NCBI GenBank assembly: GCA_965153355.1
Contig: OZ231126.1
Coordinates: 11,408,001 to 11,472,000 of the forward strand
Reading direction: 5' to 3'
Source: Flaccisagitta enflata
Lineage: Eukaryota
DNA length: 64,000 bases
Shown here: piece by piece, positions 20,403-45,288 of the stretch
How positions within the stretch are numbered: the first letter of the stretch is position 1
Layout: each line of letters opens with the position of its first letter
Position numbers and translations under genes: made by a program
The notes under the pieces: generated by a model
What the model saw: only the letters and a program-made list of their open reading frames with translations
Told to the model about the DNA's origin: nothing
Database searches by the model: none

Positions 20403-21308
20403 TGTTAGAAATGTATGTCTGTCCGTCGCTTAGGTGTGTGTGCCTTCTGTCTCTTTTGCGTGCTTTTGGCTTTTTTCTCTTTCTCTACTATTCGATGCCC
20501 GTGTCTTTTGTTTCTTGCCATTTTTTATATTGAACGCTAGATGGGTAACCATATGGTTGCGCCTTGATTTTGTGCCATTTGTTTTTACTACGTAAGCAAA
20601 TATACGTAACTCGTCTTTCGTATCATCCAATTTTTGGATTGATTGATTTTATTTAATTATGGCATCGCTTCTTAAAGTGATTGATTGATTTTTATGATCG
20701 TTTGAATGCGCCCTTGGAATTCACTAATTTCAATAATCTCTCATCTTTTTATTGCAGATAAACTAATGAACGGACAATTAACGTTAATTTGACATCGACA
20801 GACTGTGGGTTGAAACCAACGAAAGTGGGCCTAAAAGTAAGTTTTATAGACGTGTTTCTGATTTTATTAGCGTTGTTTTTTCTGTTTTCCGTCTGTTATT
20901 TTTGTCTTTTGGCCTTGATTTTTATCGCCGGATTTTAGTATGTTTTTATCGCTGCCCGGTCAGCTTACTATAGGGATGATATGGATGAATTTAATGGGAT
21001 GGGCCGGGGCAGGGGCAGGTATTATCAGGTGGCATGGGCTCTGAAGAAGATGAACATGTTGTCATGTGCTGTTTCTGTCCTTTATTGTGTCCTATCTCGA
21101 TTTCATGTTATCTTTTGCGTTTGCTGATCACAATTAACGCCCACTTTCCCTTTCATTTTTCCTCTCTCTTCAGTTGTTGAAATTTTTATGGAATAAACGA
21201 GACGATCGCCTTCCTATTTTCCACCGGCCAACCTTCTTTCACTACAAGTCGTCAGTCAGATAGACGCTCATAGACAGTGCCAGTTGAAACTCGTGGGCGT
21301 AATTTACA
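20403..21308 (+). repeat. 5' LTR
   Basis: TGTTAGAAAT...GGGCGTAATTTACA; repeated at 32635-33528 and 44397-45288. Confidence 0.95.
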
Positions 21309-21495: not shown

Positions 21496-21912
21496 ATGCC
21501 GGCGCCTTCCGACGTGCCTCATTTCTGCGCCGAAGGAACGAATGACTTCGACGACGCTGCTGTGAATCAGATGGCGCTCGACACGGCCTTCGAGACATGG
21601 TCTACGACTTCATATCGATGCAAGAGAAATGGCGCTCGACTCGATGCCCGGCATTCTCTTCGATTCGCGGCGTCTACTTTGCGTCGAATCCGGCGCGAAT
21701 GGGACTCCATGCGTTTCTTTGATCGTGAAAACTATCCAGAGGGTTTTCCTTCCAACGCCGACATCGTGAACGCAGTGCACAACGACATTGGGAATCGCAA
21801 AAGACCCGTCAATGAATTCTCATGGAACAGTCTCCCAACTGACACTCACGCCGCCCGTGACAATGTTACCGGCGCTCCGACTCCAAGGATGCGAACGTCT
21901 TCGCCAAACCCC
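21496..21912 (+). CDS. Probable true N-terminus of Gag, one base out of frame with the main gag ORF
   Basis: ATG at 21496 opens a protein-like ORF overlapping gag; deleting one C from CCCC at 21909-21912 fuses ...RTSSPNP to TDPSIYHSPG... Confidence 0.45.
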
Positions 21913-24900
21913 GACGGATCCGAGTATCTACCACTCGCCCGGCGACATGGTGCGCATCTCCGACTGGCGGCCATTTCTAAATCTGCCGCCGATTCAAAGA
22001 GGAGACGCTGTCAATCAATGGGTATCAGACTTGGTCTCGGAAATTGAACCTGCGCGTGCGTCTCCAATGCAGCAAGCTGACGACATGCTTGCGGATCTCG
22101 ACGACGCCGACGCTCTCGCAAGAGGCCGCGGGATCATCAACGGATTGACGCCGCAGGAGAGGGCGTGGCGACGCTCGTCAACAGGAGTGGAGAGAGACAG
22201 ATGGGGTAGGCAGTTGGAGGAGGAAATGCGACAAGGCCGCCGGCTGATTAACGATATGCAGCAGCAACAACGGGAGGAGGAGCAGCGACAGCAACAGGAG
22301 CAACAGCAGCAGCATCAATTGCAGATGCAGCAGCAGCAACTCCAACAGCAACGTCAACTCCACCGACCACAGGAGCAGCAGCAAACGACGGCTCAACGGC
22401 AGCAGCAAGAGCTGTTGCAGCAGCAGCAGTTGCAGCAACTACAACAATTTTGTCAACAAGATCAGCAACAACAACAGAACCTGCAGCCGGCGCCACAACC
22501 TGTGGCGCAGCAACAGCAACAACACGATCAGCAGCAGCAGCAGCAGCAACAACAACAACAATCACAAAACGATGCAGGGGAAAACATGCAACAGCAACTG
22601 CAGCAGCAACAGCAACCTCCCGCCGCAATCCCAGCGGTGGTGGTGGATCCTCCAGCTTCAAACAACCATTTTGTCGAAAGCATGAACATCAGTGAGGAGA
22701 CAGAAGAAGAGAGACAGCAACGCCTTGCAGATCAACGGCTGCGCATGATGGCTGAAGGTGAAGGTGGTGATGCAGCAACAGCTCCAAAGGCGCCGATCGC
22801 GGTGCCATTGGGATTCCAACAACGAAGCTCATCACAAGAAGACAAGGACTTATACGACAAAATGTGTAACTTTCGCCAGCAGCAGCAACGAGATGAAGAT
22901 AGAAGAGCGGGAATATTCAACAATGCGGCAGAAATGCAACGGAAGCACTGGAATAGCCTGAACGACGGCGGCATTGGTGGGGCTTTAGAGCAGCGGGATG
23001 TGAAGCTTAGGCAACTGTCTGAGCTGGAACAGCAGCAGCCGCAGCATCCGCCAAAAGACCGTCGATCTATCTTCAGAAACGCCAATCCGGGATCGCTCAA
23101 TCCGAACATACAGCAACGCCATGTGCAGTCAGTGGAAACGTCCGTCAAGCAGCCGATGCAGCAGCAGCAACAGATGGAGCAGCAGCAGCAGCAAGGACAA
23201 CGCCAGCCGCAACTGCAGCAGCAGAATGAGCAGCAACAGCGTCCTGACCAGCAACAGCAGCTTCAACATCAACAGTGGCAGCAGCAACGGCTTCAACAAC
23301 AGCAACAGCATCAGGATCAGCATCATCAAACCCCAGCGGCAACGATTCTCCCCACCGCACCGGAAGTGATCTTCGAGAGGCAGATTGGCTCTGCTAGAAG
23401 GGAGACTGGTATTCCCCATCAAGAGGAAAAGGTCTTCAACACAGCCGGAAGCGGGGGTGATGCAACGGAGGCAATGCGCAGGAGGCAGAAGCAGGAGGCC
23501 GCTGACGCGAAGTTGGCACAACAGCTGCAAGATAAAGAAAGAAGAAAAGTCGCTCCTAAGAAGACAACGAATGGATTGCAGCCGAAGGCGCCGAAAGTAG
23601 CGCAAGCGCCTCTAGCAACGCCTCAAGCGGAAGTTATCCAGCAGAATCAGCGTTTGCAGCAAGAAGTGGACAGTTTGAAGATGCAGATTCAGCAGAGAGA
23701 CTTTGACCTTGCCGCAGCGAGAGCAGAAGAAAAACAGCGAAAAGAAGATCAACAACAGCGACAGTACGTCCGCCAAGATTTTGATGCTCCCCGATTCCAT
23801 CAAGATGATCGTCAACAACAAGTGAATCAGCAAGAGGAAGTGGGGTGGAGCGTAAAAACCACCAAAAAGAGATCTCCGGTGAAAGTCGGGGGTCAATACG
23901 CTTTCGTCCAACAACCCCCAGCGTATCATCAAGTGGAGCATCACCAAGTAGTCCGTCAACCGGAAGTTCACGTTCAGATGCCCAACAATCCGGCTCTGGA
24001 CAGGTTTTTGGAAAGAGCGACGTACAATGATCTCATGCGAGCAAGGGAGGTCGGCCTCAAAGCGTTGGAGAGAGCAAGACCTGAGAAGCCTCTGCAGGAG
24101 CTTTCGTCCACTGACTTTATGATGTGGAAGAGGAAGTTTAAAGATGCTGAGAAGCATGAAGGCTTGACGCAAATGGACATCTTATTGGAATTGCCTAAGT
24201 GGTTTGCTGGTCCGGCAAAAGAGATCATTGAAACTGCGACGATTGATGCAACTGAAGCGACAGCAAGAGGAGAGATTGACGACGCCTTCGCAAAAATGGA
24301 CGTCGTCTTCATGGCAAGGCGCTGCAACATTGCGGCGCTGTTCAACGAAATCGTCGCGGAGGCGAAGATCCAGTCGGCCGACCATGCAAGGCATTTCAAT
24401 TTGTCTGCAAGGTTGCAAAAGGCAAAGAAGATTGCGAGGACCTGTGGAGAAGTGCAACAATGCTATCGTGACGAGCTGCTGCAGGAGATCCTCAACAAGA
24501 GGGTCCCTCATCTTGCAGATAAATTCTGGGAAAAGCAACATGAAGCAGCCCTAAATGGACAAATGTTTTCATTCGACAATTTGGTCAACTTGATCGAGAC
24601 ATGGGCAGTGATTCAGCGCAACAAAGGCGCCAGCTGCAAAACAGCATCAGTGGCAGCAGTCGCAACTACAGAGAAAGAAGCGCCATCATCATATGAAGAT
24701 GCTTTGACCAATGGCAAGCAAAAGACGCAGTCGACGGACCGCTGCAACGTCTGCAGTGGAATGCATCAAACAGAAAACTGTCATCAACTGTTAGAGTTGG
24801 AAGTGGACGCGAGAGTTCAAAAGATCATGTCTCGTCGTCTTTGCTTCCACTGTCTCGCGCCAGGACACAACGCCAAAGGATGCGTGAACAGGCCGACTTG

Positions 24901-25117
24901 CCAAACCTGCAAGAAGCGGCACGCAACGATTCTCCACGGGCGCACCTACAAGAAAGAAGAAAGGGAAGAGAAGAAAGGAGAAAATAAGCAGGGAAATAAA
25001 GTACCGCTGGCTCCCTTCAAAAAGTCAGAGGATGCGGCTGCAGCAGCACCAACAACTTCGTCGACGACGGAGGCAGCCGATCCAACGGAAATCATCTCTC
25101 CTAACGCCACGGCATGA
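21788..25117 (+). CDS. gag: Bel/Pao Gag with long poly-Q region
   Basis: 1109-codon ORF; C-terminal CNVCSGMHQTENC, CFHCLAPGHNAKGC and CQTCKKRHATILH form the Bel/Pao triple knuckle; stop TGA at 25115-25117. Confidence 0.92.
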   Translation: MGIAKDPSMNSHGTVSQLTLTPPVTMLPALRLQGCERLRQTPTDPSIYHSPGDMVRISDWRPFLNLPPIQRGDAVNQWVSDLVSEIEPARASPMQQADDMLADLDDADALARGRGIINGLTPQERAWRRSSTGVERDRWGRQLEEEMRQGRRLINDMQQQQREEEQRQQQEQQQQHQLQMQQQQLQQQRQLHRPQEQQQTTAQRQQQELLQQQQLQQLQQFCQQDQQQQQNLQPAPQPVAQQQQQHDQQQQQQQQQQQSQNDAGENMQQQLQQQQQPPAAIPAVVVDPPASNNHFVESMNISEETEEERQQRLADQRLRMMAEGEGGDAATAPKAPIAVPLGFQQRSSSQEDKDLYDKMCNFRQQQQRDEDRRAGIFNNAAEMQRKHWNSLNDGGIGGALEQRDVKLRQLSELEQQQPQHPPKDRRSIFRNANPGSLNPNIQQRHVQSVETSVKQPMQQQQQMEQQQQQGQRQPQLQQQNEQQQRPDQQQQLQHQQWQQQRLQQQQQHQDQHHQTPAATILPTAPEVIFERQIGSARRETGIPHQEEKVFNTAGSGGDATEAMRRRQKQEAADAKLAQQLQDKERRKVAPKKTTNGLQPKAPKVAQAPLATPQAEVIQQNQRLQQEVDSLKMQIQQRDFDLAAARAEEKQRKEDQQQRQYVRQDFDAPRFHQDDRQQQVNQQEEVGWSVKTTKKRSPVKVGGQYAFVQQPPAYHQVEHHQVVRQPEVHVQMPNNPALDRFLERATYNDLMRAREVGLKALERARPEKPLQELSSTDFMMWKRKFKDAEKHEGLTQMDILLELPKWFAGPAKEIIETATIDATEATARGEIDDAFAKMDVVFMARRCNIAALFNEIVAEAKIQSADHARHFNLSARLQKAKKIARTCGEVQQCYRDELLQEILNKRVPHLADKFWEKQHEAALNGQMFSFDNLVNLIETWAVIQRNKGASCKTASVAAVATTEKEAPSSYEDALTNGKQKTQSTDRCNVCSGMHQTENCHQLLELEVDARVQKIMSRRLCFHCLAPGHNAKGCVNRPTCQTCKKRHATILHGRTYKKEEREEKKGENKQGNKVPLAPFKKSEDAAAAAPTTSSTTEAADPTEIISPNATA

Positions 25118-28100
25118 CTGGCGGCGACGGCAACGTCGCGGTCCGTCTCTTCATTCGACGACGTTGTCCGTCCGATCGTTCCAGTGACTATTATAAACAA
25201 TTCTTCGGGTGCGCAGAGGACGATTTACGCTATGATCGACTCAGGCGCTGATCGCGACGTGATCAGTACCAATGTCATTCGCAGTCTTCTGATTCCAACA
25301 AAAACAGTGCAAATGACGGTGATTACTGTGGGAAGTCATGTTGTTGAGGATCGTTTCATCGCTTCATTCACCATGCAATCGGTCGACGAGGAATATGTCG
25401 TCGACATCAGCGACGCATTGGTGGGTGATTTGTTAACGAGTGAACGCGATATTCCTCCTTTTCTCCGCGACCTATCTGACCAACCTCACATCGAAGGCGT
25501 AAAATTTCCAGAAGCTGAAGGCGGTGTGATGATGATCATCGGAGCGGCGCATGCGGATGCCGCCGTCGCTCAAGAAATCCGTCGAGGGCCTTCAGGATCT
25601 TTGACTTGCTTTAGATGTCTATTCGGTTGGACTGTATGTGGAAAAACGGGCAAAAGAGGACGAGATATTGCGTCGATCAACGCTATCGCGACGGATGACC
25701 GCGTCCTCAACGATAATATCGATCGCATCCTCGACAATCGCGTCCTCAACAGCAACATCGACCGCATCTTCTACCATGACTTTGCATCATCAATCGTCTC
25801 GCAAGAGGAGATGGGTGATTCCCTCGAAAATGTCAGAGCGTGCAAAACGTTAGAGGAAAAAATATATTTTTGCCCAATTGTGAAAAAGTACTTTGCTCCC
25901 GTCACATGGAAATTTCATCATGAAAAAATCATGGAGATTCTGAGAAGAGTGAAATCACGACCGACTGCGATGAAGCGACTCGGCAACCAACGTTTTCGCT
26001 TCAAGCGTGATCCAGCCTTCAAAGAAAGAGTCTTCCGTGAAATCGAGAAGTTTTACGAGACGGGAGTGGCGATTGAGATTGACAACGTCGACGACGACGA
26101 CGGCATTGAGAAGCCGCGCTGGTATTTGCCGCTTCATATTGTCGAATTGCGCGGAAAAACGCGCGTATGTCATGATGCGCGTGCGGCGACCGACGGGATC
26201 TCACTCAATGATTTGCTCGTCGGAGGCCCAAACTTGATGAATAGCCTGATGGACATCCTCATGCGTTTTCGTCAGTGGAAAATCGCCTTTATGTGTGACA
26301 TAAAGGCGTTTTTCCACCAAATCCGCGTCCATCCTGACGACGCTGATTTATTCAGATTCTTCTGGTTCAAAGATCGCACCCTTCGAGAAGCAATTTTGAA
26401 TCTGTTTCTATCACACGTCTTCGGCAGCCAATCCAGCTCATTCGTCACATCTTTCACCGTCAGAAAGCATGCTGAAGTAATCCGGCCCAAATATCCCTAC
26501 AACGTCTACGATCTTATTCGCTATGGCTTTTACGTCGACGACGGAAGTGGGGGTGGGGATTCGGTCGACGAAGCACTGCAACTAAAGGTGGATTCAGTGG
26601 CGGCGATGGCGGAAGGCGGGATGGACCTTGTGAAGTGGAAGAGCAATGCGCGGCAATTGATGGATGGAGATCCAAATGTGCCAATCCCCATTTCAGATAA
26701 GCAAGATGATGCGCCGACGAAGGTGTTGGGCGTCTCATGGCTTCCGGCGGAAGACGTCTTCATTTTCATCTGCGACGAAGAATTCAAAACTCTTAGGGCA
26801 AAGACACCTCGTCAATTGGTCTCCATGCAAGCCAAACTTTATGATCCATTGGGATTTTGGAGTCCAAGCGCATACATCGGCAGACGACATCTTCAACTTT
26901 GTCGTCCACAGGAAGTGGGATGGGATTCGCCCTTGGAAGAGAGCGTCGAGGAATCCTTCTTCCGCTACACTTCATCTTGGCCTCTTCTACAACAATACCG
27001 AATTGAACGCTGGTGGAATGGCGGCGTCGACAACAGTGACATTGCGGAAATAACAATCGAGATCTTCTGCGATGCAGCTCCAAAAGGCGGATATGGAGCG
27101 GTTGCATATCGACGTCAAGTCAACCGAGATGGAGATGTTCACATTTCATTCATCGCCTCCAAATCTCACGTCATTCCACTCAATCCAAAACGTGCTTCTC
27201 ATCACAACAGCGTTCCACGCGTCGAGATTGTATCCGCGGAAAAGGCAGTGCAGCTCAAACGCTTCGTCGGAAGGACCATCAACTTGGACAATCTCGTCGT
27301 CAGATTTTGGTCTGATTCTGAATCTGCACTGAAGATGATTTACAATCCGGCGAAACCGAGGCCTGTGTTTTTCGCCAATCGTCTCTCCAAGATCCATAGT
27401 GGGTCTGATCCTCAACAGTGGCGCTGGGTTGATTCGTCAAACAACCCGGCGGACCACTGCAGCAGAGGCATCCAGGCCCATGAAGCCGAAAAATGGCGTC
27501 AATTCCATCACGGTCCCGCATTTTTGCGTCTTCCCGAAGATCAATGGCCAAAGACGAACATCGCGACGTGCCCTATTTCTGCACAAGTCGCCGCATTATA
27601 TGTGGCTGAAAGTGAAAAGAAAGAAGTGGCTGACGCGATACTTCTTGCAGCAGCTTCTCGGGGAAAATGGATGCACAAGTTGCGGATCATCGGCATGGTT
27701 CTTATCGCAGCCAAAAGGTGGAGAGCGTATCCAAGGGCGAAGACACGAGCAACAAAGGATCTCCTTCCTAAACCGGAAGTGACGCAAGACGTTTTGGAGG
27801 AGGCGCGCAAACAGCTCGTCAAGTCAATGCAGCGGCATCATTATTCAGACGTCTTTGAACAATTGGAGTTGGGAAAAGTATTCAAGCCAGAAAGCCGTCA
27901 TGACTTTATCATCAAAAACAAAGAGATGCGGAAATTGAATCCTTTCGTCGACGACGACGGTATCATTCGCGTCGGCAGTCGATTGGAAAACGCCGACATC
28001 GCACATGACGCTAAATTCCCCTTCATTTTGCCGCCAAAAGACGAGAATGTGAAATCATTGATTCGTCATTATCATCACAATGATTTTCACGCGGGTGCAA

Positions 28101-29167
28101 AGCATACGTTGTGCCAATTACGCCAGTTTGTGTGGATTACAAAAGGTCTTCAGGCTGTCAAGAGCGTCGTCAACACGTGCTTCAGATGCCAGAAGAACTT
28201 TAAAAAGAACGCAAATCAGCAAATGGCCAATCTTCCATCAAATCGCGTCAATCCTGCACCTGTTTTTGCAGAGACTGGATTGGATGTCATGGGGCATTTC
28301 CTAGTGAAGATGAACGGGCGTGCTGATCACAAGGTGTGGATCGCAGTGTTCACCTGTTTCGTGTCACGCGCCGTCCATGTGGAATTGCTCTTCAACATGT
28401 CAGCTGATGCGATGGTAAATGCAATCATCCGCTTGGCAGCAAGGCGCCCAGGAATTCCGCTGTTTCACTTCAGATTGCGGGACGAATCTAGTAGGCGCCA
28501 ATAATATCCTCAAGAAGGAAATGGAAGCTTGGAACCGCTCGTCAACTCCCGAACTGCAGCGGCGCGGCCTTCGGTGGGATTTTATCACGCCGAGAACACC
28601 CCACTATGGAGGGGTGTGGGAGAGAATCGTCGCTCTCTTTAAGCGCCATCTTGCTTCCATCTCAACTGGCGCCATCCTCCACGTCGACGCCTTCAACACT
28701 GCCGTTGTCGAAGTTGAAGGACTTCAACGTCGCCTCTGACAGCGCTCAGCGATGATCCAAATGACTCTGAGGCCCTTACACCGAATCATATCCTCAATCC
28801 ATCTACATCCGGCCATGCCCCTCTAGATCTGGTGCAACAAGGCGTCAACTCTGACGCCGACTCTGCGAAGATTCAATGGAGGCGTGCGCAATCGCGTGTG
28901 GATGCATTTTGGAAATCATGGAGGGTCGAATACTTGTCGCTTCTTCACGCGCGAAGCAAATGGTCGAGATCCGAGAAAGACTTTGCGGTGGATGACATGG
29001 TCATCGTCATGGACGAAACGCTGCCTCGTCACAATTGGAGTTTAGGACGTGTCATGGGCGTCGAGGGTTCGTCAGCCCATGTCCGGAGGGCTCACATCCG
29101 GCGCCAGGATGGAAAGATCGTGACGAAAGACCGCACGAAGCTCGTGCGGCTGGAATTGGACTCATAA
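25118..29167 (+). CDS. pol: Bel/Pao Pol (protease, RT, RNase H, integrase); in frame with gag; frameshifts in integrase near 28450 and 28720
   Basis: PR AMIDSGAD; RT RVCHDA, LNDLL..GPNL, DIKAFFHQI, FYVDD; RH FCDAA..YGAVAY, WSDS, WRWVDSSNNPADHCSRG; IN HHNDFHAG..CFRC, GLDVMG, FTCFVSRAVHVE, SDCGTN, HYGGVWER; C-terminal FWKSWRVEYL..R.KW; TAA at 29165-29167. Confidence 0.93.
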
Positions 29168-29519
29168 AAAACGCTAAGTTTTTGAGAGAGAGAGAAAAAG
29201 GCGCATGGGCCTGTCCATTAGTAACTATAGATATGAGTGATTGATACTCTGACTTGTTATATTTACAAAGAGTTGTTATTATTCATATTTGGTTCTGATT
29301 ATCCATGCTTTCATCTTTCCTCTTGTCAATTATGTTGTCCATTTCCATTTACACATCAAAACACTGATTCATTCGCTCTGTCTATATGTACATATTATTG
29401 TGCCAAATCCGTTCTTACCTTTATCAGTTCTTCAACACGAACATTTCAAAGCTTCCGCTGACGACGTCATTCCATCTACGAAGTCAGTTTGCATCTTGAA
29501 GTCGCTCGTCGGAGTCAAG

Positions 29520-32090
29520 ATGTCCCGTCAGCAGCGTCTCGAGGCTGAAGCCGACGTGTCGACGTCGTACGGGTCCTTGGATCTTCATCGACTCTTCAAC
29601 GACGGCTCAACTCGAGAGGGATCTGCATCCACGACGTCGTTCGGGGCGGAGGAGGAGGCTGTCGCGCTGGCAGCCTTCAATGGCGACCTTCGTTCCGTCG
29701 TCGACGCAAAAATGGCGAATAAAAAGCGTCAACAAGATGATGCGTTGGTAAATCGTCAACAGCCATCCAACGCCGTTGATCCCGCGTCGCTTCCTCCATT
29801 GGTGGTCATCAGAGATGGAGGTTCGAGGCGGATTTCGATCAATCGGCCGCCGACGGACTTATTCACCACTTCTGCGGCGGCGTCATCATCGTCGGATTTG
29901 CCCTCATCGCCTCGCCAATTCTGCCTTGATTTCGGGCGCCCAGCGCCTCGTGATCAAGCCGTCTGCATGCACATCAACGCAAAGGGGCGAAGAGAGAGAG
30001 AGATTAATGAAGATGGGAGCAAGAGTGTGGAGGAGGAGGGGATGAAAGAGGAGGAGGTGCTGGTGAATGGGGAGGTGGTGGAGAAAGACATTGACCCGGA
30101 AGTGGACACTGCGACTCCGGAAGAGAAACACCAACGGATGCAGGCGCGTTGGTGGTATCGTATCATCAGCCCGGACGTCAAGTATCTCTCTTCAAAGAGC
30201 TTCTGAAAACTGGTATGCTGCAACAAACAAACTCTCATGCGCTCATCGGCTAATCAAACAGAGCTTTGCTCGGAGACTCTGGAGCGCAAAATCCAAAGCC
30301 ACAAGAGAAGGAGGGAGCATGATAAGGAGGTTCGCGCATGCATCCAGCGACGAAGAGGAAGAATGCATGCCCGGCTTCCTGGTGCAATCTCCGCCGACGC
30401 TCGTTAGTCTCCACCAGCGGTGGCTCGTGCTCGACGCAGCCGCAGCTACATCAGCGGCACCACTCTTACAGCATCAGGGAAGGTTAACGCGCCCCTGACT
30501 GCTCATCCCCAAATCAGCAGCAAATAGGTCCTCGTGACGTCACTCCTCACAAAAATCGAAGAGGATCACGTCAAAAGACTTCACAAAACGCGCAATGCCG
30601 GTAGTCAATGTGGGCCAGATTCCAAAAGCAAAGGCCCCCTTCAAGCGCCTCCAGGCGCGCCCCTGCAGCAGTAACGCCCAAAGGCCAAGGAGAAGCCAAG
30701 CGGTTCGCCGACGGCACAAGGCAGCAACCCAGAAGCTGGATCAGGCGCCTGGGGCAGCAGCAAAGGAAGAAGACCACGAGAGCTGGGAAGAAGCACAGCA
30801 GCAACCAAGGAGGTTCTACGGCGGTGCTTCGCGTCCGCTGCCAAACTCAAGGCTCTGGCCAGCAGACGGGAGCGTTTTTCCTTCACTCGCAGCCATCAAA
30901 AGCCGCGGTAGGAAGCGAACTAGCTGGCGGTGCTTCAGCATCTGTTGTGCTGGTGTAGCGCTCGTCAGCAACCGAAAGCCTGCCAAGGCCTGCAGCAAGT
31001 GCAGAACCCGCCTCCTTCGTCGGATCCAGCCTTTGATCCTGCGCATGGACACCACATCGCCGAGTCATTGCTACGAGAAGCCTCTTTACTGACCTCAAAT
31101 GCTCCATTGGGGGTGGTGAAGAATTTAGCATCAAGGCTTCCAAATGACTTCTTCTAAACGCTTCCTCCGCGTCAACGAGTTGAAGCGGCTCGTCAAGTCT
31201 TAGACGAGCGAATTCGTCGCAACATCCAAAAGGAGAAAGACGATGCTCGCCGCAGAAAGCAGCTATGGCTGCGGACAATGAGGTGGTCAAAGGCACCAAG
31301 CGAGTCGTGGAACTGGAGAAGCAGCTTGAAAGGAGAAGCAGGCCTGGTGCAATGAAGGCTAAGAAGAAAGAGGAAGCGGTGAAACGCGCAAAGGCGGCTA
31401 TGGTCGCCGATTTTAAAACTGCGTCCGCCGTACGCCCAAAATTTCGACTGGCACCGAACTGCGATGCAGTATCTCCACCTCCTGCGCCTTCTCCAGCAGA
31501 AAAAGTCTGTCAGCAGATCCCGTCGCAAAAAGACGCTCTCAAGCCTGGGAATAAGAAAAATCGAACCAGGTCTTGGAAAAATCAGACCGCCAGCTAAACG
31601 CTGATTAAAGCTACGCCCAGTTGCTGTTCAACTTAATTACCACTTTGCAACATGTGGTGGAGAGCGCCGCCATTCGCTGAGGATCGTGATCTTCCCACCT
31701 TCACATCCTCATCTCATCGATGGACAGGTCGTGCTGTCAGCGCCACCCGGGGCGTGGGGGAATGACGTCTGCCCCGCCCGCGAAAACGCCCGCGTAAGTT
31801 TCATGGTTTGGGAAGGGTTGAAGTTGAGTTTTGTTTGTAAATTTGAATCTGTGTACGATAAGAACTTTACTAATCAATCTGCCCCCATTTTTCTTTTTCC
31901 TTTCTTCCTTCGGGAGGATACACTTCAGATCTAAGCTGCACCACCTGCGCCTTTCGATGCGGTCGCCGTCGACGACATCACTCATCGCCTCCGCCCACGA
32001 GTGTTGACGAGGTGTTGGATCCGGAATGACCCGCTCGTCTCTGTAACGGAGAAGGCGCAGGTGATGTGGTCGTTCCATGATGCTTACTAA
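29520..32090 (+). CDS. Putative third (accessory) ORF of the retrotransposon; unknown function, frameshifted in this copy, probably one intron (31794 to about 31916-31928)
   Basis: Successive plus-strand ORF pieces (29289-30206, 30067-30498, 30595-31157, 31265-31597, 31686-) whose peptides recur in the second copy (e.g. LREASLLTSNAPLGVVKNLASRLP, NDPLVSV.EKAQVMWSFHDA); acceptor cttacctttatcAG at 29427; donor cgc|GTAAGT at 31794; TAA at 32088-32090. Confidence 0.55.
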
Positions 32091-32634
32091 TTTTTCTTTT
32101 ATTCAACAGATTCGTTTTTATTATATAGTTAGTAATTTATTTAATTTTGTCTTGTTTTGTCTGGTTCTTTGGAACATGTACATTTTTACAGGGGCTTGTT
32201 TTAGACATGGTCTTAGTCATTATTACGAATACTGCAATGACATGTTTTAGTAGTATGCTCCCACTTATTCTTTCCACTTTCAAGTCAAATCCCAGGCTTG
32301 AGTGCCTCCTAGGCCTGCCCCCTCTCCCCCTTCCCTTTAACTTTTTCAGAACGGGCCTTCAACCTTCGCTGCTGCCTGCTCCCATCCGTCGTCATTGACG
32401 CAATTTTTGCTGCGGTGGATCCTTCCGACGTAAACACCATTCCGTGCAGTCGTCGACCTGTTGATAGTTAGGGTGGGGATGCAAGAGGCGGTGGACGGGG
32501 GGGGAGGGGCGGGGGTTGTGTCTATGTAAATTTTTTTTTAAGGAAGGTAGTATCGGTTTTTTAGTAGGGTTTTCGACTGAAATTCATTAGATGTCGGATT
32601 TTTTACCCGTGAAATCTCCAAAATGTAGCAGAAA

Positions 32635-33528
32635 TGTTAGAAACAGGCGTCTGTCCGCCGCTAGGTGTAGCCTTCTGCCCCTTTGCGTGCTTTTGGCTTT
32701 TTTCTTCCCTACTATTCGATGCCCGTGTCTTTTGTTTCCTGCCATTTTTTTATATTAACCAGATGGGTAACCATATGGTTGCCTTGATTTTGTGCCATTT
32801 GTTTTTACTACGTAGGCAAATATACGTAACTCGTCCTTCGTATCATCCACCTTTTGGATTGATTGATTTTATTTAATTATGGCATCGCTTCTTAAAGTGA
32901 TTGGTTACTGATTTTATGATCATTTGAATGCGCCCTTGGAATTCACTAATTTCAATAATCTCTCATCTTTTTTATTGCAGATAAACTAATGAACGGACAA
33001 TTAACGTTAATTTGACATCGACAGACTGTGGGTTGAAACCAACGAGAGTGGGCCTAAAAGTTTTATAGACGTGTTTCTGATTTTATTAACGTTGTTTTAT
33101 CTTGTTTTCCGGTGCTATTTTTGTCTTTTGCCCTTTTGCATTTTTATCGCTGGATTTTAGTATGGTTTTTTAACGTTTGCCCGATCAGCTATGGGGATGA
33201 TATGGATGAATTTAATGGGATGGGCCGGGGCAGGCGCTGGTATTATCAGGTGGCATGGGCTCTGAAGAAGATGAACATGTTGTCATGTGCTGTTTCTGTC
33301 CTTTATTGTGTCCTATCTCGATTTCATGTTACCTTGGTGTCACATCACAATTAACGCTCACTTTCCCCTTTCATTTTTTCCCTCTTCAGTTGCTGAAATT
33401 TTTAAGGAAAATAAAACGAGACGATCGCCTTCCTATTTTCCAATTCGGCCAACTTTCTTTCACCACAAGTCGTCAGTCAGATAGACGCTCATAGACAGTG
33501 CCAGTTGAAACTCGTGGGCGTATTTACA
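32635..33528 (+). repeat. 3' LTR
   Basis: TGTTAGAAAC...GGGCGTATTTACA followed by TSD GTGAG; the purine tract upstream is degenerate here but reads GGGGCAGAA in copy 2. Confidence 0.95.
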
Positions 33529-33659
33529 GTGAGCGTGTGTAGTTATTTGGCGGACGAATTTAGAATTTTGACCCAAATATACCCTTCAAGTAACCAGCCT
33601 TAGTACGCATCCGACAGTGTGACTGTTTGTTTGTCTCTCTGTCGGTCTGATTGTTTCCC

Positions 33660-33754
<95 letters not shown>

Positions 33755-33896
33755 CTGTCTGTCTGTCTATCTGTCTAAGACTAAGTGCTTGTCTGTGCGT
33801 TTGTGTTTGTGCGTTTCTGCGCACAGGTCACGATGCGTAGCTGTCTTCATTTTTCTCTCCACAAATTGCATATTCACCTCCCTTTTACCCTACAAG

Positions 33897-34204
33897 GTGA
33901 TGATAAAATCGTTGATGGAGCGGAATTCCGAATTAGAACATGAATTGGCGGAAGCTCAGCGGAAAGCGGAAGAAATGACTCGCAAAGCGGAAGATTTCCG
34001 ACGGACGAAAGAATCGGAAATTATTCTGGCGAAACGACTGAAGGAATTGGAAGCGGAAGCGGAAGAGTTGGCAGCGGAAAAAGACAGAGCCATCGCTGCC
34101 GCGGAAGAATGTCATAGAGAGGAGTTAATCGGTTACAAAGAACAAATACGACAACACTCGTTGACTATTGTGGCGATGGAAGATAGAGTGTCCAGAGCCA
34201 ACAG
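33897..34204 (+). CDS. FHAD1: FHAD1-like coiled-coil protein, exon
   Basis: Acceptor ccttttaccctacaAG|; YKEQIRQHSLTIVAMEDRV resembles the FHAD1 motif YKEQI.QH..TIV..E (from memory); donor ag|GTGAGT, phase 2. Confidence 0.8.
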
Positions 34205-34227
34205 GTGAGTCATGTGAATGCCAACAG

Positions 34228-35049
<822 letters not shown>

Positions 35050-36199
35050 AGTTATCACCGACCATCTCTCCTTTTCCCTTTCCCTTTTTTTCTGACCAAA
35101 GAAAACAACAACACGCAATCTACAACAAATATAATATACAGGAAATGCTGCAGCCGTTTTCATTTAAGGCTGATTGCAATCCCATTTCTTCCTCTTTACT
35201 CTCACCGGAGGCCCTTTCTTCATATTTATTTGACCCGAGGGCAAAGTCAAGGACAATCTATTTCCACGATCCGTTTCATCCTTCTCTTCTCTGTTTCTGT
35301 TCAAAAAATCTCCACTTCTTGCCTCCAGGCACCTCCCCCCTATCCTAGAAGCAGACACTTAACATTTATGGAGCAACAAGCTTTTTTGTATTTTTCACTT
35401 GTCTCGCTATTTTCCGTGCCGATTAAGTAACTTTCAGAAGAGCGCGTAAAGGTGCCCTGCTGCATGGAAGGGAATGGGATATGATAACACGGTGAAAACA
35501 GAAAGGAAAGCCAAAGAAATGAATTAAACTAAACGAAACTTTGAGAAAGTTACGAGAAGAAATTAAGTCTGTATCCAAGACCTAATTGGCATATTGCAGT
35601 ATAAATGATCGTACTATTTTGATGGATGAAGATGTAGTTTCAATATTATATGAGGCAGAACTCATGATCAATCTAGTTTAGACGCATGAGAAAAGTATTC
35701 AAGGTGGTTCTATTAAGTCATTAACCGGGGGTATCATCACGGATCTAGTTGTTATGATCTTTGACATGGATAATGTCGATCGGTAAATTCATTAATTTTA
35801 GAATTTTAGAATTTTAGAATTTATTAATTTTAGATTCATTAATTTTAGAATTTTAGAATTTTAGAATTTTAGAATTAATTTTAGAATTTAGAATATACGC
35901 GAAATTTTCAGTGGTGAGTAGTGACAAACCTCAGATCTGTGAAGTGACACAGTGAAGTTGGGCAGATAACTTGAGCACTATTCGCACCAAGAGACTCCCA
36001 TGAGAGCTACCGCACCTAATGTCCTCCGACCTTTTAAGAATCGAGAACGGGCGCAGAAAAAATGCTGCCGTCAGTACCGCTGGATACGCCAATCACTTCA
36101 TCTGTATTCACCATGATTATCTTCCCTTTTCCCTCACACACCCCTTCCACAAACATTTCCATCCGCCCCTTCCACCCCCCCCCCTACTCCCCCTCTCAG

Positions 36200-36521
36200 A
36201 CAAAGTCAAGAGCAAGCAGCCGAGATGGAAGAACGATTCAACGAAATTTCGGCGCTCGAGGCCAAGATCCGTCAACTGGAAGAGGAAAAGGAAAATCATG
36301 CGCTGGAGGCGTCCGCAGACTCGGAAGCCATGAAGAGACTCTCGGGAAGAGGAGGAAGAGGAGGAGGAGCTGATGGAGGCATCGATTACACGGCCAAAGA
36401 TATTTACGCCATGGAACAACTCATTCTGTTGTTGAGGAGAGAGACGGCGGATTTCAAAGTGGCTTTGAAGGAGAGAGACGAGACGATTGTGGGCATGAGG
36501 AAGGATCTACAAGGGGCGCAG
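36200..36521 (+). CDS. FHAD1: FHAD1-like coiled-coil protein, exon
   Basis: Acceptor ctccccctctcAG|36200 is phase 2 and matches the previous donor; heptad-like QEQAAEMEERFNEISALEAKIRQLEEE...LKERDETIVGMRKDLQGAQ; donor cag|GTGAGG, phase 0. Confidence 0.8.
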
Positions 36522-40700: not shown

Positions 40701-43700
40701 ATGGAGGGGTGTGGGGAGAGAATCGTTTCTCTCTTTAAGCGCCATCTTGCTTCCATCTCACCCGCCATCCTCCACGTCACGCTTCTAACACTGCTGCTGC
40801 TTCTGCTAAGGACTCTCAATCGCGCCCTCTGACAGCGCTCAGCGATGATCCAAATGACTCTGAGGCCTCACTAATCATATCCTTGTCCATCGATATCCGG
40901 CTGCCCTCTAGATCTGGTGCAACAAGGCCAACCACGCCACTCTGCGAAGCATCTGCAATGAGGCGTGCTAATCATGTAGATGCATTTGGAAATCGTGAGG
41001 GTTTAATACTTGTCGGCTTCACGCGCGAAGCAAATGGTCGAGATCCGAGAAAGACTTTGCGGTTGATGACATGGTCATCGTCATGGACGAAACGCTGCCT
41101 CGTTGCCACTGGCGAGACGTGTCATGGGCGCGAGGGTCTGGTCAGCCTGTCCGGAGGCTTGATCCGGGGCGCCAAGATGGAAGGATCGTGACGAAAGACC
41201 GCACGAAGCTCGTGCGTGCTGGAATTGGACCTCATAAAAACGCTAAGTTTTGAGAGAGAGAGAAAAAGATGGCCTGTCTATTAGTAATCATAGATATGAC
41301 ATTGAAACTCTGACTTGTTATATTTTTACAAAGAGTTGTTATTATTCATATTTGGTTCTGATGATTCATGCTTCTTAATTCCTTTCCTCTTGTTAATTAT
41401 GTTGTCCATTTCCACTTACACATTAAACACTGATTCATTCGCTCTGTCTATATGTACATATTATTGTGCCAAATCCGTTCTTACCATTATCAGTTCTCAT
41501 TAACATTTCAAAGCTTCCGCTGACGTACGTCATTCCATCTACGAAGTCAGTTCGATCTTGAAGCCGCTCGTCGGAGTCAAGATGTCCTGCCAGCAGCGTC
41601 TCGAGGCTGAAGCGGACGTGTCGACGCCGTACGGATCCTGGGATCTCCATCGACTCTTCAGCGACGGCTCGACTGAGAGGGATCTGCATCCACGACGCCG
41701 TTCGGGGCGGAGGAGGAGGCTGTCGCGCTGGCAGCCTTCAATGGCGACCTTCGTTCCGCCGTAGACGCAAAAATGGCGAATAAAAAGCGTCAACAAAGAT
41801 GATGCGTGGAAAATCACAACAGCCTTCCAACGCTGCTGATCCCGGTCATTTCTCCACAGACAATAAAGATGGAGGATCGGTATGGATCTCATCAATCGTC
41901 ACGGGACGGGATTCTATTCACCATCACAGCGTCATCATCATCATCGGATTTGCCCCCATCGCCGCCAATTCTGCCTGATTTCCGGTCGCCCAGCCGCCCG
42001 GGATCAAGCCGCCTGCAGCTGCACATCACCCAGCGGGCATGAGATTGGTCACGATGGAGCAAGAGGAGCGCAAAACTAAAGCAGTCACATGAGTGGAGCA
42101 GGACAAGGAGGTTCGCCGCATGGTCCAGGCGACGAAGAGGAAGAATGCGGCTCCTGATGCAACTGCAAACTCATCTGCTGCAACTTCCGTCGACGCTGCC
42201 GCAACTCCACCAGCGGTATTTGCGCTCGACGCAGCCGCAGCTACATCAGCGGCAATTCACTCTACAGCATCAGGAAGTCGTCAATCGCGCCCTGGATTGG
42301 TTCATCCCCCAAATCAGCAGCAACAGGGTCCTCGTGACGTCACTCCCTCACAACAGCCGAAGAGATCACGTCGGGGAAAGACTCCACAAACGCGCAATGT
42401 GCCGAGTCAACAAAAGGGCCAAATTCCAAAAGCAAAGGCCTCTCTGCTGCGCCTTCCGCGCGCTCCCCAACGTCAGCGCCAAGGAGAAGCTTCAAGCGGT
42501 TCGTCGACGGCAACGCGGCAGCAACTCCAGAAGCACCAGGCGCTCGGGGCAGCTGCAAAGGGAAGAAGACCCAGAGAGCTGGGAAGAAGCACAAAGCAGC
42601 AACCAAGGGAGGTTCTACTTGCGGCGCCGCGCCCGCTGTTAAAACCTCAAGTCTCTGGTCAGCAGATCGGAGCGCCTTCCTTTCACTCGCAGCCATCAAA
42701 GCCGCTGTAGAAGTTAACTATGCGTTTCAGCATCTGTTAAAGCTGGTAGCGCCTCGTCAGGGCAAACCGAAGCCCGTCTAAGGTCTGCGCAAAGTGCAGA
42801 ACCCGGCCTCCCGCGGATCCAGCCTTGGATCCTGCGCATGGACACACTACATCGCCGAAATATTGTTAATACGAGAAGCCTCTTTACTGACCTCAAATGC
42901 TCCATTGGGGGTGGTGAAGAATTTAGCATCAAGGCTTCCAAAAGACTTCTTCACAAGCCGCTCGCCTGCCACCAGGCAGCTGTTGTCAAGTCTTAGACGA
43001 GAGGATTCGCCGCAACATCCAAAAGGAGAGACGATAGCCATGAGCAGCAATGGCTATGACAATGAGGTGGTCAAAGGCAATAAGCTAGAAGTCGCGGGAA
43101 CTGGAGCAGCTGAAAGGAGAAGCAGGCCTGTGCGATGAAGGCTAAGAAAGAGAAGCGGTGAACGCCAGAAGGCGGTTATGGCCGCCGACTTTAAAATCCG
43201 CAGCCTCGCCGTGACGCCCAAAATTTCGACTGGCCAATTGCGATGCAGCACTCACCCTCCTGCGTCTTCCTGCAGCAGAAAAGTCGGTCAGCAGATCCTG
43301 TCGCAAAAGACGCTCCCAAGCCTGGGAATAAGAAAATCGAACCAGGCCTTGGAAAAATCGGACCGCCAGCTAAACGCTGATTGGTGCCACGCCCAGTTGC
43401 TGTTCAATTTAATTACCAATTTGCAACATGGCGTGGAGAGCGCGCTTATTCTGAGGATCGTATTCCACTATCACATCCTCATCCCATCGATGACAGGCTG
43501 GGAGTCGGGGCGCCACCTGGGCGTGTGGGAATGACGCCCGCCCGGCCTGGCGAAAACGCCCGCGTAAGTATCATGGTTCTGGGAAGGGTTGAGGTTGAGT
43601 TTTTGGTGTGAATTTGAATCTGTGTACGATAAGAACTTTATTAATCAATCTGCCCTTTTTCTTTCTCTTCCTTTTCTTTCCCTTCGGGGAGGATCCACTC

Positions 43701-45288
43701 TCAGACTGCTGCACCACCTGCGCTTTTCGATGCGGTCGTCGTTTACGACACCACTCATCGCCTTTCGCCCACGAGTTGACGGGGTGTTGGAGCCGGAATG
43801 ACCCGCTCGTCTCTGTAATGGAGAAGGCGCAGGTGATGTGGTCGTTCCATGATGCTTGCTAATTTTCTTTTTATCTTACAGATTCGTTTTTATATATAGT
43901 TAGTAATTTATTTAATTTTGTCTTGTTTTGTTTGGTTCTTTGGAACATGTACATTTTTGTTGTATTTGAGCTTTAGACATGGTCTTTAGTCACATTACTT
44001 GTAATACTTTCAGAGACAGTTTTAGTAGTATGCCCCCACTTATCTTTTCCACTCTCAAGCCAAACTTGTGGCTTGGAGTGCTCGAGTCTGCTCCCTTCCC
44101 CCTTCCCTTTAACTTCTTCAGAACGTGGCGCCTCAACCTCGTCGCCGCCGCCCTGCCTCCATCCGCGTCATTGACGGCGTACTTGTTGGTGGATCCTTTC
44201 CGGACGGGAATCATCATTCAGGCAGTCGTCGATCTGTTGATAGCCAGGTGGGGATGCAGGAGGCGGTGACGGGGGAGAGGCGGGGGCAGGCCCATGTAAA
44301 TTTTTTTAAGGAAGGTAGTATCGTTTTTTTAGCAGGGTTTCCCGACTGAAACTAGGTGTCGGATTTTGGAAATTGCAATCCAAAAATGGGGCAGAATGTT
44401 AGAAATGTATGTCTGTCCGTCTCTTAGGTGTGTGTGCCTTCTGTCTCTTTGCGTGTTTTTGCTTTTTTTTCTCTTCATCATTCGATGTCTGTAATTTCTT
44501 TTGTTTCTGCCGTTTTATATTGAACGCTAGATGGGTAACCATATGGTTGCGCCTTGATTTTGTGCCATTTGTTTTTACTACGTAGGCAAATATACGTAAC
44601 TCGTCCTTCGTATCATCCAATTTTTGGATTGATTGATTTTATTTATTTACGGCATCGCTTCTTAAAGTGATTGATTGATTTTTATGATCGTTTGAATGCG
44701 CCCTTGGAATTCACCATCTCAATAATCTCTCATCTTTTTATTGCAGACAAACTAATGAACGGACACCAACGCACTCACATCGACAGACTGGCTGGAAGTT
44801 CAACTAAAGTGGGCCTAAAAGTAAGTTTTATAGACGCGTTTCTGCTTTTATTAACGTTGTTTTTATCTTGTCTCCGGTCTGTTATTTTTGTCTTTTGCCC
44901 TTTTGCATTTTTATCGCCGGATTTTAGTATGGTTTTTATCGTTTGTCCGATCAGCTTGCTATAGGGATGATATGGATGAATTCAATGGGATGGGTCAGCA
45001 GGGCAGGTATTATTTGTGTGGCATGGGCTCTGAAGAAGATGAACATGTTGTCATGTGCTGTTTCTGTCCTTTATTGTGTCCTATCTCGATTTCATGTTAT
45101 CTTTTGCGTTTGCTGATCACAATTAACGCCCACTTTCCCTTTCATTTTTCCCCTTCAGTTGTTGAAATTTTTGTTTTAACAACAAGACGATCGCCTTCCT
45201 ATTTTCCCACCGGCTAACTTCTTTCGCACGCAAGTCGTCAGTCAGATAGATGGCTCATAGACAGTGCCAGCGAAACTTCAAAGCGTAT
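37706..45288 (+). mobile_element. Second copy of the same Bel/Pao family, 5'-truncated and indel-rich (partial pol, ORF3 region, 3' LTR)
   Basis: Colinear with copy 1 from about 25580 onward (GCCTTCAGGATCTTTGACTTGC); many frameshifts; lacks gag, the 5' LTR, the terminal TTACA and a TSD. Confidence 0.92.
44397..45288 (+). repeat. 3' LTR of the second copy (3' tip degraded)
   Basis: Polypurine tract GGGGCAGAA then TGTTAGAAATGTATGTCTGTCC...; similarity ends at GCGTAT, about 45288. Confidence 0.9.

What the first reader, a model, noticed from the sequence alone, without database searches (positions are those of the whole stretch)
29168..32634. 3.5-kb extra region after pol encoding an apparently spliced, non-env accessory protein
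Seen: after an AT-rich spacer ending in a good acceptor (29427), GC-rich coding-like sequence runs from ATG 29520 to TAA 32090 in pieces. The two copies break at different places, and combining them suggests one protein of roughly 800 aa: acidic N-part, WWYRIISPDVKYL..ENWY segment, Ala/Pro/Gln/Arg-rich linker, basic helical part. A GTAAGT donor (31794; also 43564 in copy 2), TACTAAT branch site and pyrimidine tract indicate a sense-strand intron. I see no signal peptide, transmembrane anchor or Cys pattern typical of env. Established: some Bel/Pao elements (e.g. nematode Cer and Tas) carry env-like third ORFs. Inference: an uncharacterised accessory gene (RNA export, anti-silencing or transactivation) expressed from a subgenomic RNA while the genomic RNA stays unspliced.
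Basis: partly seen in the sequence, partly recalled or inferred. Interest (0 to 1): 0.75.

Follow-up and report, generated by a model that had tools for sequence, protein, structure and literature searches.

The report
Orphan third gene in Bel/Pao retrotransposon
The stretch after pol is the decayed remnant of a real third gene of a Bel/Pao retrotransposon, which in intact relatives is one unspliced reading frame of about 710 codons for a mostly disordered, non-envelope protein with no known relatives.

Summary
The 3,467-bp region between the pol stop (29167) and the 3' LTR (32635) exists as described, in a 13.1-kb Bel/Pao element that shares LTRs with a second, more decayed copy. It holds a genuine third gene, but not a spliced one. 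Four database clusters (183 member sequences) encode intact 703-710-aa proteins colinear with window 29520-31597. All 14 members I aligned stop at or just before 31597, about 200 nt upstream of the proposed GTAAGT donor. RNA-library contigs from three marine runs show no joint at 29427 or at 31794>31916/31928 and include the proposed intron. Both window copies are pseudogenes: copy 1 has at least 11 frameshifts and one stop, and copy 2 has at least 16 frameshifts including a 278-nt deletion. The protein has no signal peptide, no membrane segment, no Pfam, PDB or fold match, and only 17 relatives among 1.84 billion representatives. It is predicted to be mostly disordered, with an acidic N-part, a basic remainder and a confident C-terminal long helix that a model pairs with itself. 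I infer a trans-acting, self-associating, nucleic-acid-binding accessory protein; this function is untested. In copy 1, gag-pol is nearly intact while ORF3 is riddled with indels, so ORF3 may be dispensable in cis.

The parts
20403..21308 (+). 5' LTR of copy 1 (906 bp, TGTTAG...TTTACA)
   Evidence: Three-way alignment and blastn self-match with 32635-33528 and 44397-45277.
21812..25117 (+). gag: first in-frame ATG to TGA. The frame is open for 1115 codons from 21770. It has a Q-rich N-half and three zinc-knuckle-like motifs near the C-end.
   Evidence: No Pfam hit. The motifs were read from the translation.
25118..29167 (+). pol, in the same frame as gag after a single TGA. It carries two frameshifts (about 28457-28463 and 28722-28732).
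   Evidence: Peptidase_A17, Integrase_H2C2, DUF5641 and a weak RVT_1 match. 97% identical to the intact 1312-aa P0038.
29168..29519 (+). AT-rich spacer between pol and ORF3. It contains the acceptor-like ...TTTATCAG ending at 29427. Bases 29428-29519 are open in frame with the ORF3 ATG.
   Evidence: The translated stretch is conserved in 4 N-extended database proteins.
29520..31597 (+). ORF3 remnant of copy 1, colinear with intact 703-710-aa proteins. It has at least 11 frameshifting offsets, 3 in-frame offsets and 1 stop.
31598..32634 (+). 3' untranslated region. It contains the intron-like motifs (GTAAGT 31794, TACTAAT 31868, AG 31916/31928) and a purine-rich run 32620-32634 abutting the LTR.
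   Evidence: No joints, and the interior is covered by contigs. Calling the purine run a polypurine tract is inference.
32635..33528 (+). LTR shared by copy 1 (as 3' LTR) and copy 2 (as 5' LTR)
41582..43370 (+). ORF3 remnant of copy 2, with at least 16 frameshifting offsets including a 278-nt deletion that removes residues about 148-270
44397..45277 (+). Third LTR, closing copy 2

Best explanation
Shown: the region is the pseudogenised copy of a third gene (ORF3) of a 13.1-kb Bel/Pao LTR retrotransposon. In intact relatives ORF3 is one uninterrupted frame of 703-710 codons (window 29520-31597). It is followed by about 1 kb of untranslated sequence up to the 3' LTR. The protein is an orphan and is not an envelope protein. 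It has an acidic N-terminal 200 residues (pI 4.6). A conserved helical block follows at about 200-290 (QARWWY...LLFKEF..KL..CCNK plus a basic helix). Then comes a 235-residue Ala/Ser/Pro/Gln/Lys-rich basic linker with several K/R clusters. The C-terminal domain (about 530-655) is helical, and its roughly 85-residue helix is predicted to pair antiparallel with a second copy. Inferred: ORF3 is a trans-acting accessory protein that self-associates through the C-terminal helix. It would bind nucleic acid, most likely the element's own RNA or DNA, through its basic disordered parts. It would act as a regulator, chaperone or scaffold of the element's expression or particle assembly, not in cell entry. 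Also inferred: it is dispensable in cis, because copy 1 kept gag-pol almost intact while its ORF3 evolved like non-coding DNA. How ORF3 is expressed (spliced subgenomic RNA, internal promoter in the spacer, or re-initiation) is open.
For: A real gene with one exon. The search found 4 clusters (87, 81, 11 and 4 members) of 703-710 aa, 78-86% identical to the window's first 228 codons. In cluster 1, of the 15 members listed, 11 are 710 aa, 1 is 703 aa, and 3 are longer only by N-terminal read-through. Divergent fragments at 36-56% identity keep the same blocks. The LTRs show 17 gap events per 67 mismatches. Frames that stay open at 14% aa divergence therefore cannot be neutral (my inference). 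Copy 1 against copy 2 gives dN/dS 0.51 (0.39-0.66) for ORF3 and 0.43 for pol. Not env: the highest 19-residue hydropathy is 1.32, the N-terminus is charged, and there are 6 Cys. Orphan: no Pfam match; only 17 hits among 1.84 billion representatives, none of which can carry a name because that library holds none; no PDB sequence or fold match beyond generic coiled coils at Z about 6. Fold: 465 of 710 residues have pLDDT under 50, while residues 530-650 score 89-97. Self-pairing: score 0.54 against a best control of 0.00 among 3 controls. The three runs agree in at least 85% of contacts, and the partner's pLDDT is at least 70. The mark was reached by 21 of 30 microbial proteins solved as pairs of one chain and 0 of 23 solved as single chains. 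For eukaryotes the counts were 17 of 29 and 0 of 30. Charge: net +30, pI 9.84. Asymmetric decay: gag is open, pol has 2 frameshifts, ORF3 has at least 11; the binomial P is 2.9e-6. Eleven RNA-library contig pieces within 23176-27879 show 0 gaps against the window, while 66-67 gap letters fall in 29203-31520, at similar substitution levels of 3-7%.
Against: No experiment or homology bears on the function; nucleic-acid binding and trans action rest on composition and analogy. The self-pairing model concerns a long helix, a shape that models pair readily, and the tool's calibration did not include predicted or disordered chains. The codon-position signal for ORF3 between the two decayed copies is weak (63/72/90, P = 0.08). 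The excess of indels in copy 1's ORF3 could also come from recombination between a young gag-pol and an old 3' part. The LTRs of copy 1 are only 92.4% identical, which fits poorly with a simple young insertion. I could not see the DNA of the intact copies, so linkage of intact ORF3 to pol rests on overlapping contigs, and codon-level selection could not be measured. The database clusters are ascertained as long ORFs.
Confidence: 0.55

Rival explanations
1. One reading: an accessory protein of about 800 aa assembled from exons, with a sense-strand intron 31794>31916/31928 and a stop at 32090, translated from a subgenomic RNA spliced into 29427.
For: The motifs are present. GTAAGT is kept in both copies. 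The 92 nt after the AG at 29427 are open in frame with the ATG and are conserved at the protein level in 4 N-extended database proteins. GC content rises there.
Against: All 14 aligned members stop at or just before 31597. No joint at either site appears among the 15 joints listed for 3 contig runs, and positions 31833/31834 inside the proposed intron are covered by contigs in all 3 runs. The single motifs occur at chance frequency. Copy 2 has lost the TACTAAT. Divergent relatives start at the same Met. The intron-in-coding part is effectively refuted; use of the acceptor at 29427 for a subgenomic RNA remains open.
Confidence: 0.05
2. ORF3 is a degenerate envelope gene, as in Tas, Cer, roo or mosquito BEL elements.
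For: The position between pol and the 3' LTR is where env-like genes sit in some Bel/Pao elements (PMC8742986, whole text; PMC13524379, passages). It contains a long helix.
Against: The intact family members have no signal peptide, no membrane segment, few Cys and no env family match. The protein is mostly disordered and basic.
Confidence: 0.03
3. ORF3 is a transduced host gene, or a fragment of one, with no role for the element.
For: LTR retroelements do capture cellular sequences (PMC5408684 and PMC7264820, passages). The host genome is not held here, so a host parent cannot be excluded.
Against: Only 17 relatives were found among 1.84 billion representatives, all fragments or full ORF3s. 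That library holds no names or genomic context, so whether any is a host gene could not be seen; the four clusters carry no source name. ORF3 divergence (86%, about 50%, about 40%) runs alongside that of related pol families (97%, 78%, about 50%). Hundreds of copies remain intact.
Confidence: 0.1
4. ORF3 acts on the host instead of on the element's own nucleic acid, for example as an antagonist of small-RNA or chromatin silencing.
For: The acidic N-part, basic clusters and disordered regions are common in nuclear interaction hubs. The linker evolves fast between conserved blocks.
Against: There is no direct evidence, and no similarity to any known suppressor. A gene needed against silencing would be expected to stay intact in propagating lineages unless it is supplied in trans.
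Confidence: 0.12
5. ORF3 is not a gene: the frames are open by chance in GC-rich sequence.
For: GC-rich DNA gives long frames on both strands, for example a 208-aa antisense frame at 30883-31509.
Against: There are 183 member sequences in 4 clusters with intact frames of about 2.1 kb at up to 14% aa divergence. Blocks are conserved down to 36-40% identity. A C-terminal domain is confidently predicted once divergent relatives are included.
Confidence: 0.02

Closest known systems
Env-like third ORFs of Bel/Pao elements (Tas, Cer, roo, mosquito BEL; Belpaoviridae)
   Same: They sit in the same element family and at the same position: sense strand, between pol and the 3' LTR (PMC8742986, whole text; PMC13524379, passages).
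   Different: Those are glycoprotein-like proteins acquired from viruses. This protein has no signal peptide, membrane anchor, Cys pattern or viral homologue. The element is 13.1 kb, against the stated 4.2-10 kb.
Non-env additional ORFs (ORF3/aORF) of LTR retrotransposons: the bdelloid rotifer ORF3 types, including a coiled-coil ('CC') type, and plant sense aORFs
   Same: An extra family-specific ORF after pol, conserved across copies, often without database similarity. The proposed roles are accessory or regulatory (PMC5408684 and PMC7264820, passages only).
   Different: Those are in Ty3/gypsy or copia lineages of rotifers and plants. I found no sequence relation. I did not see the sequences of the rotifer CC type, so that comparison is by description only.
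Regulatory proteins of complex retroviruses (Tat, Rev, Rex, foamy-virus Tas): analogy only
   Same: A small set of features: an extra gene 3' of pol, an acidic part plus basic clusters, and predicted self-association.
   Different: No homology. No evidence of spliced mRNAs. ORF3 is much larger and mostly disordered. The resemblance is recalled, not tested.
LINE-1 ORF1p: analogy only
   Same: A retroelement protein with a disordered basic part and an oligomerising coiled coil. The human ORF1p coiled coil appears among the generic helix matches (6fia_A: Z 6.0, rmsd 4.4, 98 aligned).
   Different: That Z is within the noise for long helices. No RRM or CTD was detected. ORF1p is a parallel trimer, whereas the model here is an antiparallel pair.

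Membership tests
Bel/Pao LTR retrotransposon (Belpaoviridae): the host element | pol with the Pao-type domain set (Peptidase_A17, RT, integrase zinc-binding domain, DUF5641 tail) | tested here: met
   Peptidase_A17 E 1.2e-28, Integrase_H2C2 6.6e-9, DUF5641 1.8e-20. RVT_1 scores only 18.1 bits, below its cutoff of 29.6, but close relatives carry PF00078.
Bel/Pao LTR retrotransposon (Belpaoviridae): the host element | Flanking LTRs, and a gag with nucleocapsid zinc knuckles | tested here: met
   LTRs of 894-906 bp. Three CX2C...H...C/H motifs were read in the gag translation. There is no Pfam gag hit.
Retroelement envelope (env-like) protein | N-terminal signal peptide and C-terminal membrane anchor | tested here: not met
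   The highest 19-residue Kyte-Doolittle mean is 1.32 in P0001, and 0.75-1.32 in the five other members tested. The N-terminus is MSRQQRLEAEAD.
Retroelement envelope (env-like) protein | Homology or fold likeness to a viral fusion glycoprotein | tested here: inconclusive
   No Pfam or PDB sequence match. Fold searches returned only generic helices. Most of the model is low-confidence.
Additional ORF (aORF/ORF3) of LTR retrotransposons | A sense ORF between pol and the 3' LTR that is present and conserved in many copies of the family | tested here: met
   Position. 183 member sequences in 4 clusters, plus divergent relatives. RNA-library contigs join pol, spacer and ORF3 by overlap.
Spliced accessory gene of a complex retroelement | A mature mRNA formed by splicing into the ORF (29427) or within it (31794>31916/31928) | tested here: not met
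   No such joints in the contigs of 3 runs, and the proposed intron interior is present in contigs. Caveat: contigs cannot show rare forms, and the raw-read run did not cover the element.
LINE-1 ORF1p-like RNA chaperone | Coiled coil followed by RRM and CTD | tested here: not met
   A long helix is predicted, but no RRM or CTD family was detected.

The most novel reading that the evidence does not exclude
This Bel/Pao lineage is a 'complex' retroelement. It would have evolved its own trans-acting, self-associating regulatory or chaperone protein, unrelated to any known protein. Copies that keep gag-pol but have lost ORF3, like copy 1 here, would propagate by using ORF3 supplied by intact copies, an internal host-parasite relation within one element family.
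Probability: 0.2. Interest if true: 0.7.

Novelty: new variant of a known kind. Interest (0 to 1): 0.45.

Why it matters
The only third genes described for Bel/Pao elements in the papers I read are env-like. A conserved, abundant, non-env ORF3 with no relatives adds a new gene type to this family. It is a candidate for a retroelement-encoded regulator in marine animals. The contrast inside copy 1 (gag-pol kept, ORF3 decayed) gives a testable handle on whether such accessory genes act in trans. The practical value is modest: it corrects the annotation (one exon, about 710 aa, stop at 31597) and gives natural intact sequences for expression and binding tests.

Tried and rejected
- Whole-genome access: none is held for this window.
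- Earlier scan notes: none by place or by sequence.
- Raw RNA reads (X8): 485 reads laid, 437 under 90% alike, almost all on the CAG-rich part of gag. This says nothing about ORF3 expression.
- JGI metagenome contigs and IMG/VR contigs: pattern hits (595 and 268) but no relative by tblastn. Alignment A4 was too diverged for that tool.
- Profile search with the C-terminal fragments (A5, 'longer'): nothing. It did not recover even the known 703-710-aa members, so this is uninformative.
- ESM Atlas: best score 0.81, within the range of shuffled sequences.
- Foldseek against PDB: no match at E <= 0.001. VIA wide: only generic coiled coils at Z about 6.
- PDB sequence profile: best E 0.07.
- Pfam on 13 family members: only scattered single hits at E >= 0.02.
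- ORF3 against gag by BLASTP: no similarity, best E 1.3.
- Rfam on 20300-33700: nothing.
- First dN/dS script: it picked codons by exact matches to the guide protein. That biases dN downwards (0.149 and 0.355), and the script crashed on gag. It was replaced by the DNA-aligned version.
- Literature: 3 full-text searches found no description of a non-env ORF3 in Bel/Pao.
Full report
THE ELEMENT. The window holds two head-to-tail units that share LTRs. The LTRs are at 20403-21308, 32635-33528 and 44397-45277. Unit 1 (20403-33528, 13,126 bp) is a Bel/Pao element.

Its gag frame is open for 1115 codons (21770-25117). The first in-frame ATG is at 21812. gag has a Q-rich N-half and three zinc-knuckle-like motifs.

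pol follows after a single in-frame TGA (25118-29167). It carries Peptidase_A17, Integrase_H2C2, DUF5641 and a sub-threshold RVT_1 match. It is 97% identical to an intact 1312-aa database pol, P0038.

According to the ICTV profile (PMC8742986, read whole), Bel/Pao genomes are 4.2-10 kb with gag, pol and sometimes an env-like gene. This element is longer.

THE OBSERVATION. pol stops at 29165-29167 and the next LTR starts at 32635. The extra region is therefore exactly 29168-32634, 3,467 bp. It has three parts:
- An AT-rich spacer, 29168-29519, GC 0.37.
- A GC-rich stretch, 29520-31597, GC 0.555.
- A tail of 1,037 bp up to the LTR.

WHAT THE GC-RICH STRETCH IS. I searched with the first open piece (29520-30206) for longer proteins. 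This found four clusters of 703-710 aa, 78-86% identical, with 87, 81, 11 and 4 members. They run from MSRQQRLEAE... to ...NKKNRTRxWKNQTAS, colinear with window 29520 to 31594, followed by TAA 31595-31597.

In cluster 1, of the 15 members listed, 11 are 710 aa and one is 703 aa. Three are longer (755, 772 and 803 aa) only because the gene call ran upstream through the spacer. In the alignment of 14 members, all end at the same stop or 4-5 codons before it. ORF3 is therefore a single exon of about 710 codons.

The stop at 32090 and the intron are not part of the gene.

STATE OF THE WINDOW COPIES. Against P0001, copy 1 changes reading offset at least 14 times. Eleven of these shift the frame and three are in frame. 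It also has one in-frame stop. Copy 2 has at least 16 frame-shifting offsets, including a 278-nt deletion that removes residues about 148-270. The breaks are at different places in the two copies.

IS IT UNDER SELECTION? I could not get the DNA of the intact copies. The evidence is therefore indirect, in four parts:
- Many distinct intact frames exist at up to 14% aa divergence. Non-coding parts of this same element show 17 gap events per 67 mismatches (LTR a against b). Neutral sequence of that divergence would be full of frameshifts; this is my inference.
- A phmmer search of 1.84 billion representatives found 17 hits. Among them are fragments at 36-56% identity that keep discrete blocks. 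These are the N-terminus, AAFxGDL, EEEGM..DPxVD..PE..QARW(W/Y/F)Y...LLFKEFxKLxxCCNK, and a C-terminal block from DPxxGHHI through LPKDF, PRQRxEAAR and VERxKAAM to a terminal KxRxRxW. Variable low-complexity linkers lie between the blocks.
- Adding these divergent sequences raised AlphaFold confidence for residues about 530-650 from 42-89 to 89-97.
- Between the two window copies, using DNA-aligned codons framed on copy 1, dN/dS is 0.51 (bootstrap 0.39-0.66; 432 codons) for ORF3 and 0.43 (0.36-0.52; 1209 codons) for pol. The codon-position skew is weak for ORF3 (63/72/90, P = 0.08) and clear for pol (146/173/236, P = 1e-5).

WHAT THE PROTEIN LOOKS LIKE. P0001 has no hydrophobic segment; the highest 19-residue hydropathy is 1.32. 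Its N-terminus is charged, and it has 6 Cys. Overall pI is 9.84, net charge +30. Residues 1-200 are acidic (pI 4.6) and the rest is basic. K/R clusters sit at 67, 265, 282, 360, 434 and 633.

AlphaFold gives 465 of 710 residues a pLDDT under 50. It predicts helices at 201-285, best at 254-285. It also predicts a C-terminal unit: two short helices (535-543, 550-559) and one long helix (570-654).

A two-copy model of residues 520-665 pairs the long helices antiparallel. The score is 0.54 and the best of 3 controls is 0.00. The runs agree in at least 85% of contacts, and the partner's pLDDT is at least 70. By the tool's calibration, the mark was reached by 21 of 30 microbial proteins solved as pairs of one chain and 0 of 23 solved as single chains. 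For eukaryotes the counts were 17 of 29 and 0 of 30. Disordered or predicted chains were not tested. This supports self-association but does not show it.

No family, structure or fold relates to the protein, and it is unrelated to the element's own gag.

RNA EVIDENCE. Seven marine metatranscriptome or transcriptome runs hold small shares of the region. Contigs of three of them were laid at 85% likeness or better. They cover the element from LTR to LTR in 30, 29 and 30 of 30 bins, at roughly even depth outside the CAG-rich part of gag.

Overlapping pieces join pol to the spacer (27680-29232; 28919-29419) and the spacer to ORF3 (29203-31520). None of the 15 joints listed is at 29427 or at 31794>31916/31928. 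Positions 31833/31834, inside the proposed intron, are covered by contigs in all three runs.

There are limits. Contigs drop rare forms, do not prove transcription, and cannot show ends. The only raw-read run (X8) matched almost only CAG repeats. The intron inside the coding sequence is therefore refuted by the protein family. A spliced or internally initiated subgenomic RNA is simply untested.

In favour of some function for the 92 nt between the AG at 29427 and the ATG: they are open in frame, and in the four N-extended database proteins they read ...HFKASADDVIPSTKSVxILKSLVxVKM with only two variable positions. Against an upstream coding exon: divergent relatives start at the same Met.

AN UNEXPECTED ASYMMETRY. 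In copy 1, gag has no break, pol has two frameshifts in 3.9 kb, and ORF3 has at least eleven in 2.1 kb. Under a uniform rate, P(at least 11 of 13) is 2.9e-6.

The same pattern shows against the RNA-library contigs. Eleven pieces within 23176-27879 have 0 gaps. The three long pieces that reach the end of pol or the start of the spacer have 4-6. The two long ORF3 pieces have 66 and 67 gap letters. The LTR piece has 12. Mismatches are similar everywhere at 3-7% (table 8). One ORF3 contig is 52 nt longer than the window over 29203-31520. That is close to the 55-nt net deficit of copy 1 relative to P0001.

In copy 2 the ORF3:pol ratio of frameshift density is only about 1.5, so an indel-prone sequence does not explain the ten-fold excess in copy 1.

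The simplest reading is that gag-pol stayed under selection in the lineage leading to copy 1 while ORF3 did not. ORF3 would then be dispensable in cis, or supplied in trans. The alternative is a recombinant between a young gag-pol and an old 3' part. The 92.4% identity of copy 1's two LTRs makes this a live possibility.

MECHANISM (INFERRED). The protein is basic and largely disordered, with an acidic head, K/R clusters and a self-pairing helix. This fits a nucleic-acid-binding, multimerising accessory factor acting in trans on the element's RNA or DNA: a regulator, chaperone or scaffold. It does not fit an entry protein.

I put about 0.85 on 'real, unspliced, non-env, orphan ORF3' and about 0.35 on this functional class. 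An anti-silencing role, a captured host gene and an env remnant are the rivals.

COMPARISON AND NOVELTY. Env-like ORF3s are known in Bel/Pao (PMC8742986; PMC13524379, passages). Non-env ORF3s or aORFs, including a coiled-coil type, are described for rotifer and plant LTR elements (PMC5408684 and PMC7264820, passages). Three literature searches gave no non-env ORF3 in Bel/Pao.

I rate this a new variant of a known kind, of moderate interest.

Noticed in passing
window 25115-25120: gag and pol are in the same frame, separated by a single TGA followed by CTG. Related intact pol proteins (about 1300-1350 aa) start just downstream. This suggests stop-codon read-through instead of frameshifting for Gag-Pol.
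   Followed up: partly
window 21812-25117: gag is unusually long: 1115 codons open, with a Q-rich, CAG-repeat N-terminal half of about 700 residues. It has no Pfam gag hit (DUF1759 absent), but three zinc-knuckle-like motifs near the C-end. RNA-library depth spikes on the CAG part, which comes from unrelated repeats.
   Followed up: partly
window 25700-25770: A 39-bp in-frame tandem duplication in pol relative to the intact relative P0038 (the ...NDNIDRI... stretch is doubled).
   Followed up: no
window 33529-37716: Unit 2 has no recognisable gag. This 4.2-kb 5' internal part shares no similarity with unit 1's 21309-25587 (no tblastn or blastn match). It holds a (CTGT)n run at about 33650-33770 and arrays of 8-15-nt period at 34135-35093 and 36411-36925. 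Similar arrays recur at 46449-46900, beyond the third LTR.
   Followed up: partly
window 20403-21308, 32635-33528, 44397-45277: The three LTRs are 92.4% (a-b), 88% (a-c) and 84% (b-c) identical, with 15-21 gap events per pair. The LTR-sharing tandem is therefore neither a recent duplication nor a simple pair of young insertions.
   Followed up: partly
window 20837-21173: The LTR carries AAAAGTAAGT at 20837 (also at 44821 in the third LTR; lost through a 4-bp deletion in the middle LTR) and a pyrimidine tract plus CAG ending at 21173. This is an intron-like pair in the leader. An RNA-library contig (20536-21302) retains it.
   Followed up: partly
window 29428-29519: The 92 nt between the acceptor-like AG (29427) and the ORF3 ATG are open in frame and strongly conserved in the four database proteins that read through them. 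They may be a conserved 5' leader or regulatory element.
   Followed up: partly
window 16856-17563 (-): A 235-aa open frame gives a sub-threshold Pfam hit to P22_portal (E 5.7e-4, 18.9 bits against a cutoff of 26.1). It is probably spurious. None of the other nine flanking frames scanned had any hit.
   Followed up: no
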